Shown here one piece after another: positions 29,035 through 45,470 of a stretch of 64,000 nucleotides of DNA. This DNA is from a virus (lineage: Duplodnaviria; Heunggongvirae; Uroviricota; Caudoviricetes). A program made the position numbers and the translations under genes. The stretch's first letter is position 1. Every line of letters begins with the position of its first letter. The stretch lies in IMG/VR virus record IMGVR_UViG_2718218133_000001; one strand, given 5' to 3'. The notes under the pieces were generated by a model that saw only the letters and a program-made list of their open reading frames with translations, was not told the origin of the DNA and searched no databases.

Positions 29035-30342
29035 ATGAGCGAATATGTTGAGTTAGCATACGCTGCCGCTACAAGCAGGCTTTGTCTATTTACCGGGACT
29101 GGCTTTTCAAAGGCAGTCTCGAACGGTGAAGCTCCAACGTGGAAGGAACTATTAAAAAAAGTTTGCAGCAAAGTTCACAATGCCAAAAAGTTGGAAGACA
29201 CGTTATTCCCTGATGATAAACCACCAGCACTGAGTCTTGAAGAAGCCGCACAAATACTATCTTTGAAGCTCAATATTGAGGGTAAGTCGATTTATGATGA
29301 AATTGTTGACATCATATCTCCAATTCAACTTGGAGAAGACATATCAAATATAAAAGATTTTTTCCAAAAAAACTCATTCCGTGTCATTACAACAAATTAT
29401 GACAAGTTGGCTGAATGCTTGGTTGGAGATGAAAGTGTGCAGTCTATCACGCCCGGCCTGCCAATTCCAAAGTATCCATCCAAGGTGAAAATATATCATG
29501 TTCATGGTTCTATTGATTCGCCAAAAAATATGATTGTCACTTCAGATGATTACTTCAGATTTATAAATTCCGATACTTATTTTTCACGAAAACTTAGTAC
29601 GATGCTGCATGAAAATACAGTTGCGATATTAGGGTATTCTTTAAGCGACACAAATCTTAAAGCAATTATAAATGACTATAAAAAATTTTCGAAAAATAAT
29701 GCCCTGTGCTCTAATATCTTTTTGATATCTCGCAACAAAGTAAGTCAAGATATGAAGGATTATTACTTCTATTGCTTTGGTATAAGGGTAATTGACAATA
29801 CAGAAATAGATTGTTTCTTTAGTCGATTAAGTTATAAGATTTCTCTCATTAAAGACATCATTGAAAGAGCGCGCGAAAATATCAGAAAAGTTGTTTCGGG
29901 GGCTTACACTTATAAAAATGAATATCTTAAATTAGAGGATTCATTTTATCAAATTATATCATCAATTATATCGGAAGGTTTAGATTGGAATGATGATAAA
30001 GTCGTTTCTCTTTTCGAAAGGATAATAGAAAAAAAGAGAAAGTTAACAAGGAATAACGGAGCGTGGGAGCAATATGAACAGTTGGCAAAATGGCTTATAT
30101 ATTTTGGAAGCATCATAGAGGTTAGCAATACTAAGTATGAAAAAACATATTTAGACGCAGTTGAATACTCGATGGGTCATATGAGTAAAGAAAGGAATTG
30201 GGGAGTTTCTTGGCATGCTTACAGAGCTTGGGAAACACGATGGCCTGCAATAATTGCCTCAAATAGATTAATGATAAAAAACCACATTGAAACATTAGGC
30301 ACCTTGAAGGACGCCAACCTTATAGTTAAGAATATAGTGTAA
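29035..30342 (+). CDS. SIR2-like (SIR2_2-type) domain protein, candidate NADase defence effector
   Basis: 435 aa; GTGFS (res 21-25), TTNYD (N121), YHVHG (H155/H157), GYSLSD; AT-rich; occupies the position of P1 res-mod. Confidence 0.6.
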   Translation: MSEYVELAYAAATSRLCLFTGTGFSKAVSNGEAPTWKELLKKVCSKVHNAKKLEDTLFPDDKPPALSLEEAAQILSLKLNIEGKSIYDEIVDIISPIQLGEDISNIKDFFQKNSFRVITTNYDKLAECLVGDESVQSITPGLPIPKYPSKVKIYHVHGSIDSPKNMIVTSDDYFRFINSDTYFSRKLSTMLHENTVAILGYSLSDTNLKAIINDYKKFSKNNALCSNIFLISRNKVSQDMKDYYFYCFGIRVIDNTEIDCFFSRLSYKISLIKDIIERARENIRKVVSGAYTYKNEYLKLEDSFYQIISSIISEGLDWNDDKVVSLFERIIEKKRKLTRNNGAWEQYEQLAKWLIYFGSIIEVSNTKYEKTYLDAVEYSMGHMSKERNWGVSWHAYRAWETRWPAIIASNRLMIKNHIETLGTLKDANLIVKNIV

Positions 30343-42810: not shown

Positions 42811-42943
42811 AAAGACCTCATAAGCGAATTTTTTACGCTCCAGGACAAACACCCATTCACAGCCAATACCGACTGACTCGATCCCTTTAGAAGGCACAGG
42901 ATAATGCAAATCACTTGTTAGCTACGTTTCAAAGATATACATT

Positions 42944-42960
42944 ATTGCTCTAATTATTTT
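42944..42960 (+). promoter_or_regulatory. C1 operator-like ATTGCTCTAATTATTTT upstream of ssb
   Basis: Operator core match. Confidence 0.5.
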
Positions 42961-42979
42961 ATTTTATTAGGTAAGAAAA

Positions 42980-43468
42980 GTGGCACAACGCGGTGTAAAC
43001 AAAGTCATCCTGATTGGTACCCTGGGGCAAGACCCGGAGATCAGGTATATACCAAATGGCGGCGCGGTCGGAAGACTCAGCATCGCAACGAATGAATCAT
43101 GGCGCGACAAGCAAACGGGCCAACAGAAAGAGCAAACAGAATGGCATAAAGTCGTTTTGTTCGGAAAACTTGCTGAAATTGCGAGTGAGTATTTACGAAA
43201 AGGTTCTCAGGTCTACATCGAAGGGAAACTTAAAACCCGTAAGTGGACAGATGACGCCGGTGTAGAACGTTACACGACGGAAATTATCGTCAGCCAGGGC
43301 GGCACCATGCAAATGATCGGCGCTCGCCGTGACGATTCACAGTCCTCAAATGGCTGGGGGCAATCAAACCAACCTCAAAACCACCAGCAATACAGTGGTG
43401 GCGGTAAACCTCAGAGCAACGCCAATAACGAACCTCCAATGGACTTTGACGACGATATTCCGTTTTGA
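42980..43468 (+). CDS. ssb: single-stranded DNA-binding protein
   Basis: 162 aa; OB-fold N-terminus, Gly/Gln-rich linker, C-terminal acidic tail DFDDDIPF. Confidence 0.92.
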
Positions 43469-43665
43469 ATGTGTAAAAAACGACTGAAAGAAAAGCGGTG
43501 GTCCAGACGCCGACAAAAGCACGAACTCGCAAACAAACGCCAAAGTTGGCAATGGCACGCGCTTTTCACGAAAAGAACACCCCGAGATATTGCGTTCGCT
43601 GGTGGGAAAACATTCCTGACCCACCTGAAGGCGCAATACATCAGGTTTTAAGCAGAGGAAAGACT

Positions 43666-44343
43666 ATGAATAACATGACAACGAAAGAGCTTTTGACGGC
43701 ACTTCCAAAATACAAAAGCCATAAAACAGTTCGCGCCTCAAAAATCAAAGATATCGAAATTATCGCCCTAATGGATGTGGTCCTTTTTTGCAACATCGAA
43801 GTCGTTGAGCCAGAAGGGGTAAAAGTCCATGTTGATAAAATATTTTTGCAAAAACACCGACCAGAAATTGGCGGATATCTGGTCGCTTATGAGGACGGAT
43901 CTCTGTCCTATTCACCAGAAAAAACATTTGAAGAAGGCTTTAGTCGGACTAACGACTTCTTCGAAAATGGGGTATCGCTCAGCATTGAAGGTCACAATGG
44001 GGTGACATTCATTACAGCCAGGGACGTAACTATTTCTGCTGGCGGTATCGCTACTCTACAAGAAGAAATCGACCTTGAAGCAGCCGACTTTTCTGACGCG
44101 CTGATGTGGCTGAAGGATGGCAAGAAAGTTGCCCGACGCGGGTGGAACGGCGAAAACCAATTCTGCTGGCTGGTTCCTGAAGGACAGTACCCGGCACGAA
44201 TGGAAGCCATTAAGGGATATTTCCCCGGCGACCTCGTTCCGTATGGTGCTTATTTCGCCTTAAAAAATGCACAAGGTGTAGTTGTTCCGTGGGTTCCTTC
44301 TGTAGGCGACTTACTGGCATGTGACTGGTTTGTAGTGGAGTGA
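43666..44343 (+). CDS. DUF2829-domain protein (C-terminal domain)
   Basis: ATG 43666 after GAGGAA; C-terminal DALMWLKDGKKVARRGW..LACDWFVVE resembles DUF2829. Confidence 0.45.
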   Translation: MNNMTTKELLTALPKYKSHKTVRASKIKDIEIIALMDVVLFCNIEVVEPEGVKVHVDKIFLQKHRPEIGGYLVAYEDGSLSYSPEKTFEEGFSRTNDFFENGVSLSIEGHNGVTFITARDVTISAGGIATLQEEIDLEAADFSDALMWLKDGKKVARRGWNGENQFCWLVPEGQYPARMEAIKGYFPGDLVPYGAYFALKNAQGVVVPWVPSVGDLLACDWFVVE

Positions 44344-44349
44344 TTTAAC

Positions 44350-45132
44350 GTGGAAAATACTAAAGCAATTCAATACCGCCTGCGTAATGGTCAGAGTGTC
44401 GAAGTGACCATCAATAATGATGGTGTGCCTGGCGAAAAGGTTTCGATCTCTGATCTGGCTATCGAAAAAACCATCATGTGCCACCTTGGCTTTACTGAAG
44501 AAGTGAGCAAAAAGCATGGTGTAGCAATCTGGAGCGCAATGGATACTGGTATGCACAGATTCATTACTGCTCGTACCCCAGGGATGACCATGATGGACCT
44601 CATGCAGATTGCGCCGCTGTTTGAATGTGAGCCTTTAGATGTATTCAGCAATCCAGCTATCTGCCAGCAGCTATATGGTGAGATGAAACTCGCGGTTACC
44701 CCCATTGTGCTGCATGAAGGATCGCTTGCTGGCGTGTGGAAAGTGGAGCGTATTTCAAGCTACATGCCTTTCCATGTCAACGGCGTAATCACTGGTGAAA
44801 ATCAACCTGTTTCCGTTATAAAGTCAGACCTCAAGCGCGCAATTCTTGAAGCAAGTTGTCGAGTTGTCGGCCTGGGCAAACAGTCTTATGTTTCCTTCCC
44901 GGCTGGCCCTGAAGGCCCGGCAGAAATTCTGATTATGGATGCCGATCTGCTCTGGCAAATACAGTTTCTGATTGGCAAAAGCATCATCCGCGCTGAAGAA
45001 CTCGATCAGTACATTACCTGCACGATGACGGATGAAGTCAAAAGTGTGGCTATAGCCAATGCCCGGAACCTATGTCGTGCCGCATTAACAGAACTGCAAG
45101 AAAACACCACGGAAGAAGTGGAAAGCGATTAA
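44350..45132 (+). CDS. hypothetical protein
   Basis: 260-aa ORF. Confidence 0.35.
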   Translation: MENTKAIQYRLRNGQSVEVTINNDGVPGEKVSISDLAIEKTIMCHLGFTEEVSKKHGVAIWSAMDTGMHRFITARTPGMTMMDLMQIAPLFECEPLDVFSNPAICQQLYGEMKLAVTPIVLHEGSLAGVWKVERISSYMPFHVNGVITGENQPVSVIKSDLKRAILEASCRVVGLGKQSYVSFPAGPEGPAEILIMDADLLWQIQFLIGKSIIRAEELDQYITCTMTDEVKSVAIANARNLCRAALTELQENTTEEVESD

Positions 45133-45160
45133 AAAAAATCCCGCCGAGTGGCGGGATTTC
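45122..45160. terminator. bidirectional hairpin A8-cccgcc-gagt-ggcggg-atttctt
   Basis: Between convergent genes. Confidence 0.55.
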
Positions 45161-45161
45161 T

Positions 45162-45470
45162 TCAATATACGATCTGGTCTACATGATCACCAAAATCATC
45201 GTCGTCGTCCTCATCGCCACCATCTACTGCTGGCCAATCAACAAACCAGCCAGCGTAAAGATGCAGCGTTCGGAGAACATCACTTGCGGGAGCATCAAGG
45301 GTGTTAACGAATCCCATATAGCTATTGGGATTTGCCCCAGCTATGGCTTCAGCGATCATGTCCTCGGTAATGTCACCGGAGATAATGCTTAAACGCCCGG
45401 AAACTTCTTCATTATCATCAAATTCGATAATGGCATCTCCACCTAATGGCGCTGCGATTTTAATCTGCAT
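45162..45470 (-). CDS. hypothetical acidic protein, last gene of darA operon
   Basis: 102 aa; overlaps upstream gene start. Confidence 0.3.
   Translation of the reverse strand: MQIKIAAPLGGDAIIEFDDNEEVSGRLSIISGDITEDMIAEAIAGANPNSYMGFVNTLDAPASDVLRTLHLYAGWFVDWPAVDGGDEDDDDDFGDHVDQIVY

What the first reader, a model, noticed from the sequence alone, without database searches (positions are those of the whole stretch)
43666..44343. DUF2829-type domain protein downstream of ssb: possible anti-defence sponge
The C-terminal ~80 residues (DALMWLKDGKKVARRGWNGENQFCWLVPEGQYP..VGDLLACDWFVVE) resemble DUF2829, the fold of the Thoeris anti-defence protein Tad2, which sequesters signalling nucleotides. Here it is fused to a ~140-aa N-terminal region of unknown function. 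The same genome carries the DarA/DarB antirestriction system and a SIR2-like candidate, so both offence and defence modules appear to be present.
Basis: inference. Interest (0 to 1): 0.45.

Follow-up and report, generated by a model that had tools for sequence, protein, structure and literature searches.

The report
Two-part Tad2 anti-defence protein of P1-like phages
This P1-like phage-plasmid gene joins a well-supported Tad2 "sponge" domain, which soaks up bacterial immune alarm molecules, to an uncharacterised front domain that resembles a phage capsid-decoration protein and recurs in front of all six known sponge families.

Summary
Window 43666-44343 (+) is a real 225-aa gene, and its last ~88 residues are a clear Tad2/DUF2829 domain: Pfam E=1.6e-22, 68% identical to a tested type II Thoeris inhibitor, 45% to MoTad2.

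The window is a P1-like phage-plasmid. The gene is a precise cassette between ssb and isaA that phage P1 itself lacks. It probably rides the C1-repressed early ssb transcript.

This part is not new. RefSeq already calls the identical protein DUF2829, and a 2025 survey reports Tad2 in 56% of P1-type and 93% of D6-type phage-plasmids.

The N-terminal region is the new part.
- Residues ~10-95 form an OB-fold homologous to the capsid-binding domain of phage L Dec (profile E=4e-8, hhalign 96%).
- The domain belongs to a large phage family with no Pfam model.
- About half of the members seen stand alone at 80-130 aa.
- The rest carry it N-terminally to Tad2, Sequestin, Acb4, Lockin, Tad1 or Acb2-type domains, and once to a T7 gp5.9-like RecBCD inhibitor.

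Best reading: an early-expressed sponge for TIR-made ADP-ribose signals, most likely His-ADPR, coupled to a second module of unknown function. No function was tested here.

The parts
42915..42977 (+). ssb promoter region: P2ssb, the C1 operator Ossb, and P1ssb
   Evidence: P2ssb is identical to the annotated P1 promoter. The C1 operator differs at 1 of 17 bases and P1ssb at 2 of 28. Function is inferred from the P1 annotation.
42980..43468 (+). ssb, the upstream gene and presumed first gene of the transcript
   Evidence: PF00436 SSB E=7e-40. It is 99% identical in DNA to P1 ssb.
43469..43665 (+). 197-nt spacer ending in the ribosome-binding site GAGGAA (43653-43658)
   Evidence: The consensus scan finds no promoter on either strand and no terminator on the + strand. 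The spacer is 99% identical to P1. The 281-aa reading from the GTG at 43498, used in SJ46 and for P1 isaA, is rejected because PGAP and distant homologues start at the ATG.
43666..44343 (+). The gene: a 225-aa two-module protein plus stop codon
   Evidence: It is a precise cassette: P1 homology stops at 43669 and resumes at 44354.
43693..43950 (+). N-terminal Dec-like OB-fold domain (aa 10-95). Signature residues are P14, Y16, H19-K20, K63-H64-x-P66, and G69-G70-Y71...Y75-E76-D77-G78...S81-Y82-S83-P84...F88-E89.
43951..44073 (+). ~41-aa beta-prone linker (aa 96-136) ending in the conserved EEIDLEAADFS junction
   Evidence: pLDDT is below 50. The segment varies between alleles, while the junction motif is nearly invariant. 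The junction also marks the breakpoint in the dUTPase-Tad2 protein P0056.
44074..44340 (+). Tad2 (PF11195) domain (aa 137-225), with GWNG at 44140-44151 and W-V-P-S-V-G-D at 44290-44310
   Evidence: The motif positions correspond to the HgmTad2 gcADPR contacts W21/N22/G23 and W87/S90/D93.
44350..45132 (+). isaA homologue (260 aa), the downstream gene, starting 6 nt after the stop codon and probably co-transcribed
   Evidence: It is 93.5% identical in DNA to the 3' part of P1 isaA. It belongs to phrog_2326 and has no Pfam, NCBIfam, PADLOC or PDB match.

Best explanation
The gene is an accessory, early-expressed counter-defence cassette of P1-like phage-plasmids.

Shown:
- It encodes a two-module protein.
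- The C-terminal module is a bona fide Tad2-family domain.

Inferred:
- The gene is transcribed with ssb from the C1-repressed ssb promoters, so the protein would appear as soon as repression is absent, at infection or induction.
- The Tad2 module assembles into a tetramer whose inter-subunit pockets bind and sequester TIR-made ADP-ribose-derived alarm molecules, so the Thoeris effector is never switched on.
- The most likely ligand is His-ADPR, the type II Thoeris signal, possibly with 3'cADPR. The two closest tested relatives, Tad2_68 and MoTad2, both inhibit type II Thoeris.

The N-terminal module is an independent Dec-like OB-fold domain tethered by a flexible ~40-aa linker. It belongs to a large phage family found alone or in front of many different counter-defence payloads. 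I judge it most likely to be a second, separate counter-defence activity, either a binder of another signal or of a host protein, which would make the protein two-pronged. This step is the least certain.
For: Tad2 membership:
- Pfam E=1.6e-22.
- ModTad2 6e-20 against PDB sequences.
- 68% identity to Tad2_68 and 45% to MoTad2.
- Foldseek probability 1.0 to 9eib, 8v3e and 8smf, with target-normalised TM 0.74-0.89 for the best-ranked chains.
- GWNG and W..S..D pocket residues are kept.

Ligand lead:
- Tad2_68 scored y/y/y against type II Thoeris in Table S2 of bioRxiv 10.1101/2025.08.24.671296.
- MoTad2 binds His-ADPR.

Fusions are tolerated: an Acb4-Tad2 fusion is active against both of its targets.

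Early expression:
- The P2ssb promoter is identical to P1's and the C1 operator differs at one base.
- No + strand terminator or promoter was found between ssb and the gene.

Accessory nature:
- The gene is absent from P1 with exact boundaries.
- It is split by an IS-borne insertion in phage RCS47.
- It is present in 228 plasmids.
- The two halves differ in GC content, 40% against 52%.

N-domain as a separate counter-defence module:
- The family profile finds 4781 representative proteins at E<=1e-3.
- The domain is N-terminal in 185 of the 198 proteins examined.
- Its partners are Tad2, Sequestin, Acb4, Lockin, Tad1, the Acb2/Tad1 hairpin and gp5.9.
- The same fused-to-sponges reasoning led to the discovery of Sequestin.
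- One standalone copy sits between an SSB gene and an Acb2-like gene.
Against: - No binding or phenotype data exist for this protein or any P1-like allele.
- The MoTad2 residues that contact His-ADPR could not be retrieved, so ligand assignment rests on overall similarity only.
- Tad2 specificity is known to vary between close relatives.
- The Tad2_68 entry for type I Thoeris is ambiguous (n / N-A / y).
- Co-transcription with ssb is inferred from a negative consensus scan and from the P1 annotation.
- For the N-domain, no pocket, oligomer or ligand could be modelled, because the tools offer only single-chain prediction and no coordinates.
- Its only characterised relative, Dec, is a capsid binder and not a counter-defence protein.
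- One homologue lies in a head-gene module (phage GP4).
Confidence: 0.7

Rival explanations
1. Capsid-associated sponge. The Dec-like N-domain binds the phage's own capsid or coat protein, as Dec does, and so tethers the Tad2 domain to capsids or procapsids. The tether could act as a decoration protein. It could instead place the sponge where TIR sensors that recognise capsid proteins are activated, or mask the trigger.
For: - The N-domain is homologous to the capsid-binding OB-fold of Dec.
- A beta-prone ~40-aa segment follows it, where Dec has its trimerising spike.
- The most variable part of the family, beta1-beta3, is where Dec's main capsid-contact residues lie.
- A constant N-terminal module with hypervariable C-terminal payloads resembles a targeting-domain architecture.
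- One homologue lies between portal and major capsid genes in phage GP4.
- Some annotators call homologues 'capsid decoration protein'.
- TIR systems are reported to sense capsids (title of ref. 51).
Against: - The gene sits in an early, C1-controlled operon and not in a late one.
- Dec residues K30 and Y49 correspond to E31 and H55 here.
- Dec lacks the family's near-invariant H-K and Y-E-D / S-x-S-P residues, so Dec looks like the divergent member.
- Most standalone homologues lie among early, replication or moron genes.
- A sponge on the outside of a virion would not enter the cell.
- A trimeric spike would clash with the tetramer, hexamer and dimer symmetries of the partner sponges.
Confidence: 0.12
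2. The mechanism is the same sponge action but the target differs. The Tad2 domain would mainly sequester non-Thoeris signals, such as Pycsar cCMP/cUMP, CBASS cyclic dinucleotides or host c-di-GMP, through the second pocket formed by the variable insertion. Thoeris would not be the relevant target in Enterobacteria.
For: - MoTad2 also binds cUMP/cCMP in a second pocket, and HgmTad2 and SptTad2 bind cGG/cGAMP through the beta2-beta5 insertion.
- The insertion is the most variable part among P1-like alleles, with at least three types.
Against: - Tad2_68, whose insertion is nearly the same (YPARMEA[IV]KG..VPY.AYFALKNAQG), scored negative for both CBASS systems, type IV Thoeris and both Pycsar systems.
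- The insertion here is short compared with those of the cyclic-dinucleotide binders.
Confidence: 0.1
3. The protein is an AcrIIA7-like anti-CRISPR: a DUF2829 domain that acts on tracrRNA/Cas9 rather than on nucleotide signals.
For: - AcrIIA7/HgmTad2 is a family member.
- A 2026 paper title reports that AcrIIA7 hijacks tracrRNA.
Against: - Identity to HgmTad2 is only 36%, against 68% to a tested Thoeris II inhibitor.
- Li et al. found no Cas9 inhibition by HgmTad2 or its homologues.
- Type II CRISPR-Cas is not a feature of E. coli or Salmonella hosts (my own knowledge).
Confidence: 0.03
4. The N-domain is only a passive solubility or assembly scaffold, or the fusion is an evolutionary accident with no function of its own.
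For: - Domain shuffling is rampant at this junction: a dUTPase replaces the N-domain in front of a Tad2 part that is 98% identical.
- GC content differs between the two halves.
Against: - About half of the family members seen are standalone proteins with near-invariant polar residues.
- The same domain recurs in front of six unrelated sponge folds and a RecBCD inhibitor. That is hard to explain by accident or by a shared assembly need, given their different oligomeric states.
Confidence: 0.15

Closest known systems
Tad2_68 (IMG/VR Ga0135441_1000161) and MoTad2/ModTad2 (PDB 9EIB, 8V3E): the type II Thoeris-inhibiting clade of Tad2
   Same: The C-terminal 82-89 aa are 68% identical to Tad2_68 and 45% to MoTad2. 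The length and sequence of the beta2-beta5 insertion match (YPARMEA.KG...VPY.AYFALKNAQG). The GWNG and W.PS..D pocket motifs are present, and the predicted fold is the same.
   Different: Those proteins are 87-88-aa single-domain proteins. This one carries ~136 extra N-terminal residues. It comes from a P1-like phage-plasmid of Enterobacteria, and its ligand is untested.
Documented sponge fusion proteins: Acb4-Tad2 (Pasteurella phage Pm86), Tad2-Sequestin, and Acb4-Sequestin (Pseudomonas phage Ab09 gp59)
   Same: One polypeptide joins a Tad2-type sponge to a second module through a linker. Such fusions are active against more than one system. The gene lies next to an SSB gene, like the N4-like anti-signalling hotspot.
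   Different: The partner here belongs to none of the known sponge families: it has no Pfam match, hhalign to a Lockin homologue gives 1.7%, and the PDB profile search finds only Dec. It is not shown to bind anything.
Phage L decoration protein Dec (PDB 6E3C)
   Different: - Dec is a late structural protein with a 57-aa trimerising spike and no Tad2 domain.
- Its capsid-contact residues K30 and Y49 are not kept here.
- It lacks the family's near-invariant H-K, Y-E-D and S-x-S-P residues.
- This gene lies in an early operon.
HgmTad2 / AcrIIA7 (PDB 8KBI-8KBM)
   Same: It is a Tad2 domain preceded by an N-terminal extension and still forms a tetramer with two kinds of pocket.
   Different: Its extension is ~45 aa and unrelated in sequence to the N-domain here. 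Its long insertion binds cyclic dinucleotides. It is only 36% identical to this Tad2 domain.

Membership tests
Tad2 / PF11195 (DUF2829) sponge family | Match to the family profile above the curated threshold | tested here: met
   PF11195 scores E=1.6e-22 and 80.2 bits against a cut-off of 25, covering aa 141-224 and profile positions 2-73 of 73.
Tad2 / PF11195 (DUF2829) sponge family | Sequence similarity to experimentally validated members | tested here: met
   Identity is 68% to Tad2_68, 45% to MoTad2, 36% to HgmTad2 and 36% to SPO1 Tad2. PDB sequence E-values range from 6e-20 to 5e-8.
Tad2 / PF11195 (DUF2829) sponge family | Fold superposes on solved Tad2 structures | tested here: met
   Foldseek gives probability 1.0 to 9eib, 8v3e, 8smf, 8wje and 8kbj, with target-normalised TM 0.74-0.89 for the best-ranked chains. 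The insertion loop, aa 178-190, has low confidence.
Tad2 / PF11195 (DUF2829) sponge family | ADP-ribose pocket residues: G-W-N-G, and W-x-x-S-x-x-D near the C-terminus (HgmTad2 W21/N22/G23, W87, S90, D93) | tested here: met
   G159-W160-N161-G162 and W209, S212, D215 are present. The T92 equivalent is G214, as in Tad2_68. W160, W209 and D215 are invariant in 36 homologues.
Tad2 / PF11195 (DUF2829) sponge family | Homotetramer with inter-subunit pockets | not testable with these tools
   Only single-chain prediction is available.
Tad2 / PF11195 (DUF2829) sponge family | Binds and sequesters an immune signal, and relieves Thoeris, CBASS or Pycsar defence | not testable with these tools
   This needs biochemistry and phage assays. 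No paper in the held library reports tests of a P1-like allele.
Tad2 / PF11195 (DUF2829) sponge family | Small single-domain protein of ~70-110 aa | tested here: not met
   The protein is 225 aa with two modules. This is not disqualifying, because Tad2 fusions are documented and active.
Phage L Dec-type decoration protein | Dec-type OB-fold with detectable sequence homology | tested here: met
Phage L Dec-type decoration protein | C-terminal three-stranded beta-helix spike that trimerises | tested here: inconclusive
   A ~41-aa beta-prone segment follows the OB-fold, but its pLDDT is below 50 in the monomer model. Dec's spike is also disordered as a monomer. No multimer modelling was possible.
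Phage L Dec-type decoration protein | Capsid-contact residues (Dec K30, Y49) | tested here: not met
   They align with E31 and H55, which lie in the family's variable region. The P1 coat protein differs from that of P22/L, so this test is weak.
Phage L Dec-type decoration protein | Late structural gene whose product is present on virions | tested here: not met
   The gene follows ssb behind C1-controlled promoters. P1 lacks the gene, and its virion proteome is reported to lack decoration proteins. Virion content of phages that carry the gene is untested.
Sponge-sponge fusion proteins (Acb4-Tad2, Tad2-Sequestin type) | Both modules belong to validated sponge families | tested here: not met
   The N-domain has no Pfam match. 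It is unrelated to Lockin (hhalign 1.7%), and its PDB profile search finds only Dec. Tad3-Tad8 could not be checked because that paper is not held.

The most novel reading that the evidence does not exclude
The Dec-like OB-fold N-domain defines a large, unnamed family of phage counter-defence modules. It would be either a further signal sponge or a protein-binding inhibitor. Pfam-based fusion screens missed it because it has no Pfam model. It occurs alone or in front of all six known sponge families. The P1-like protein would then be a two-pronged inhibitor, and phage L Dec would be a member of this family co-opted for capsid binding.
Probability: 0.35. Interest if true: 0.75.

Novelty: new variant of a known kind. 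Interest (0 to 1): 0.55.

Why it matters
- P1-like phage-plasmids spread resistance genes in E. coli, Salmonella and Shigella. A built-in, early-expressed sponge could help explain how they establish themselves in hosts with signalling immunity.
- The laboratory phage P1 lacks the cassette with exact boundaries. This gives a clean knock-in test.
- The N-terminal domain is a concrete, testable lead. The same "fused to known sponges" logic uncovered Sequestin, and here it points to a much larger family with no name, no Pfam model and no known function.
- If the domain is active, it adds a new counter-defence family. It would also link that family to a capsid-decoration protein.

Tried and rejected
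- **GTG start at 43498.** The 281-aa reading used in SJ46, and the equivalent start of P1 isaA, is rejected. PGAP calls the ATG, distant homologues begin at the equivalent Met, and P1 uses the same RBS and ATG for isaA.
- **N-domain as Lockin.** Rejected: hhalign gives 1.7%, and Lockin is reported absent from complete phage genomes, whereas this domain is present in them.
- **N-domain as TadIV-1.** Unlikely: TadIV-1 is restricted to Straboviridae, and the PDB profile search finds only Dec.
- **Word-indexed protein search with the N-domain alone.** It returned only fragments and was uninformative.
- **Pfam and NCBIfam on the N-domain.** Nothing above noise.
- **MoTad2 residues that contact His-ADPR.** The Nature 2025 paper is not held, and the preprints name no residues.
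- **Tad3-Tad8 (Cell 2025).** The paper is not held, so overlap with the N-domain could not be excluded.
- **Promoter and terminator scan between ssb and the gene.** Nothing was found on the + strand.
- **isaA homologue.** No Pfam, NCBIfam, PADLOC or PDB match.
- **Oligomer or ligand modelling of the N-domain.** Not possible with the tools given.

Full report
**1. What is there.** The window is a P1-like phage-plasmid. Bases 43400-45200 are 99.6% identical to Salmonella phage SJ46. The gene itself is 100% identical to one on E. coli O55:H7 plasmid p12579_1.

An ORF runs from the ATG at 43666 to the TGA at 44343 and encodes 225 aa. A GAGGAA ribosome-binding site lies 7 nt upstream. SJ46 and the P1 record annotate an upstream GTG at 43498, giving 281 aa. 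I reject that start for three reasons:
- NCBI's pipeline calls exactly the 225-aa product (P0001, 453 member sequences).
- Homologues from unrelated phages start at the equivalent Met.
- In P1 the same RBS and ATG start the downstream gene.

**2. Locus anatomy.** Compared with phage P1, homology runs up to window 43669 (99.1%) and resumes at 44354 (93.5%). P1 therefore lacks precisely this gene, and its isaA uses the ATG that here starts the Tad2 gene. The gene is split by an inserted segment in phage RCS47 and is present in 228 PLSDB plasmids, almost all ~90-100-kb non-mobilisable elements of Escherichia, Salmonella and Shigella. It is thus a dispensable but common cassette.

It lies 197 nt downstream of ssb.
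- The P2ssb promoter is identical to P1's, and the C1 operator differs at one base.
- A consensus scan finds no promoter and no + strand terminator between ssb and the gene.
- I infer early, C1-repressed co-transcription with ssb. This is not shown.
- The two halves of the gene differ in GC content, 40% against 52%, which fits a mosaic origin.

**3. The C-terminal module is a Tad2 domain.**
- Pfam PF11195 matches aa 141-224 with E=1.6e-22.
- PDB sequence hits are ModTad2 (9eib, 6e-20), 8v3e, HgmTad2/AcrIIA7, SPO1 Tad2 and SptTad2.
- The AlphaFold model matches these structures with Foldseek probability 1.0.
- In HgmTad2 the gcADPR contacts include W21/N22/G23 and W87/S90/D93. The equivalents here, G159-W160-N161-G162 and W209/S212/D215, are present, and W160, W209 and D215 are invariant in 36 homologues.

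**4. Which ligand.** Tad2 proteins differ in specificity.
- The closest tested relative is Tad2_68, at 68% identity with a nearly identical insertion. It was scored positive (y/y/y) against type II Thoeris. It was scored negative against type IV Thoeris, both CBASS systems and both Pycsar systems. Its type I entry is ambiguous.
- The next closest is MoTad2, at 45% identity. It binds His-ADPR and, in a second pocket, cUMP/cCMP.

I therefore rank His-ADPR first. This rests on similarity only.

**5. The N-terminal module.** Residues ~10-95 fold with high confidence: pLDDT is ~90 in the full-length model and 89.5, with pTM 0.79, when modelled alone. A ~41-aa low-confidence linker follows.

Support for homology to phage L Dec comes from four searches:
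- In the Foldseek PDB search, Dec (6e3c) was the only significant match outside the Tad2 structures.
- A profile of the domain hits Dec at E=5e-5, improving to 4.3e-8 with a broader family profile.
- hhalign gives 96.4%.

The order of secondary-structure elements equals that of Dec's OB-fold.

Dec nevertheless looks like a divergent member. It lacks the family's near-invariant H19-K20, Y75-E76-D77 and S81-x-S83-P84. Its capsid-contact residues K30 and Y49 align with E31 and H55, in the family's variable region.

**6. The family and its partners.** A profile search of 1.84 billion representative proteins finds 4781 proteins at E<=1e-3 and 2171 at 1e-10. Nine of the top 150 are giant repeat proteins that match mostly over profile positions ~61-90, and I set them aside. 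No Pfam model covers the domain. It falls in PHROGs of unknown function.

I examined 198 family members shorter than 600 aa.
- The domain is N-terminal in 185 of them.
- 110 have no more than 40 further residues, that is, they are standalone.

The C-terminal partners of the others are:

| Partner | Count or example | Evidence |
|---|---|---|
| Tad2 | 20 | |
| Sequestin (PF21825) | 18 | |
| Acb4 (PF13876) | 5 | |
| Lockin | P0296, E=1.4e-22; one apparent Acb4 + Lockin triple fusion in Table S4 of Tal et al. (Acb4 segment judged by eye) | |
| Tad1 | P0217, E=2.9e-10 | |
| Acb2/Tad1 hairpin (PF24729) | P0285 | |
| T7 gp5.9-type RecBCD inhibitor (PF25708) | P0303 | |
| MazG-like domains | weak matches | |
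| Unrelated singletons | many | |

The first six rows are exactly the six sponge families listed in a 2026 paper. Tal et al. found Sequestin by asking which Pfam families are fused to Tad2 or Acb4. A domain without a Pfam model would escape that screen. A motif search of their candidate table found no member of this family.

Standalone genes mostly lie among early, replication or moron genes. One lies between an SSB gene and an Acb2-like gene. One lies in a head module.

**7. Mechanism and rivals.** Best reading, confidence ~0.7 for the Tad2 part: an early-made sponge that removes TIR-derived ADP-ribose signals before the effector fires.

My rough split for the N-domain alone:

| Role of the N-domain | Estimate |
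|---|---|
| Independent counter-defence binder | ~0.4 |
| Capsid or virion association | ~0.2-0.25 |
| Passive scaffold | ~0.2 |

- A shared oligomerisation role is unlikely, because the partners assemble as dimers, tetramers or hexamers.
- The capsid rival is attractive because of Dec and the payload-like architecture. Early expression, non-conserved contact residues and gene contexts argue against it.

**8. Known versus new.** That P1-like elements carry Tad2 is already public. RefSeq and UniRef name the protein, and DefenseFinder counts give 56% of P1-type and 93% of D6-type phage-plasmids. In the held literature I found no experimental test of any P1-like allele. I also found no description of the Dec-like N-domain or of its fusion pattern. 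The library is incomplete, and Tad3-Tad8 could not be checked.

**9. Other points.**
- The Tad2 part recurs at 98% identity behind a dUTPase domain at another locus, near c1/cre, of related elements. The break sits at the conserved EEIDLEAADFS junction.
- P1-like alleles carry at least three different insertion types. One has W-K-G in place of W-N-G.

Noticed in passing
window 29035-30342 (+): A 435-aa SIR2-like protein: PF13289 SIR2_2 at E=1e-23, best PADLOC match the candidate system PDC-S25, and weaker matches to the ThsA and LmuA SIR2 domains. In plasmid p12579_1 the equivalent gene appears split into two ORFs. A possible defence gene therefore sits on the same element as the Tad2 gene.
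   Followed up: partly
window 43469-43665; L002 (P1) 4070-4266: The 197-nt ssb-gene spacer is open in two frames. One is the GTG frame that P1 and SJ46 annotate as the start of isaA or of the Tad2 gene. The other is a 60-aa, very basic ATG ORF (43469-43651) that starts right after the ssb stop codon. P1 isaA (320 aa) is probably over-extended by 56 codons. Whether the basic ORF is real was not tested.
   Followed up: partly
window 44350-45132 (+): The isaA homologue (260 aa, phrog_2326) starts 6 nt after the Tad2 gene. It has no match in Pfam, NCBIfam, PADLOC or PDB sequences. It sits between the Tad2 gene and the convergent hxr-ddrB genes that begin P1's ddr/dar operon (operon extent from my own knowledge), so it may belong to the same counter-defence neighbourhood.
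   Followed up: partly
alignment A1 (homologues P0003-P0118), aligned to window aa 159-209: P1-like alleles carry at least three unrelated versions of the Tad2 beta2-beta5 insertion. One group also has E/G-W-K-G instead of G-W-N-G, a change at a residue whose mutation, together with W21, impairs gcADPR binding in HgmTad2. One allele (P0087) resembles Tad2_71, which inhibits type I, II and IV Thoeris. This suggests that specificity is swapped by cassette exchange.
   Followed up: partly
L010 4001-4726; L011 2067-2792 (protein P0056): A dUTPase-Tad2 fusion (241 aa) has a Tad2 part 98% identical to the window's. It lies at a different locus, next to the c1 repressor and cre-like integrase of P7/D6-like elements. 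A P0023 variant carries a phage tail-fibre repeat in front of the N-domain.
   Followed up: partly
proteins P0129-P0134, P0152, P0154, P0156: Giant proteins of 1800-4900 aa match mostly the beta4-beta5 part of the N-domain profile (positions ~61-90), 8 to 28 times each. The G-G-Y-x-V-x-Y-x-D-G-x-x-S-Y hairpin may be related to a common repeat. They inflate the raw hit count of 4781.
   Followed up: no
L008 4444-5522: In a metagenomic phage contig, three genes are adjacent in the order SSB-like gene (Enc34_ssDNA-bd), standalone N-domain gene, Acb2/Tad1-hairpin gene. This mirrors the position downstream of ssb seen here and in the N4-like anti-signalling hotspot.
   Followed up: no
BFVD hit A0A0B4ZZN3 (Yersinia phage vB_YenM_TG1, 208 aa): The N-domain model gives a weak structural match (Foldseek E=0.06) to a protein annotated as carrying a ryanodine-receptor Ryr domain. 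A 2026 preprint reports this domain type as a gcADPR sponge. If real, it would be one more sponge partner.
   Followed up: no
window 42944-42960: The C1 operator upstream of ssb differs from P1's Ossb at one base (ATTGCTCTAATTATTTT against ATTGCTCTAATTAATTT).
   Followed up: no
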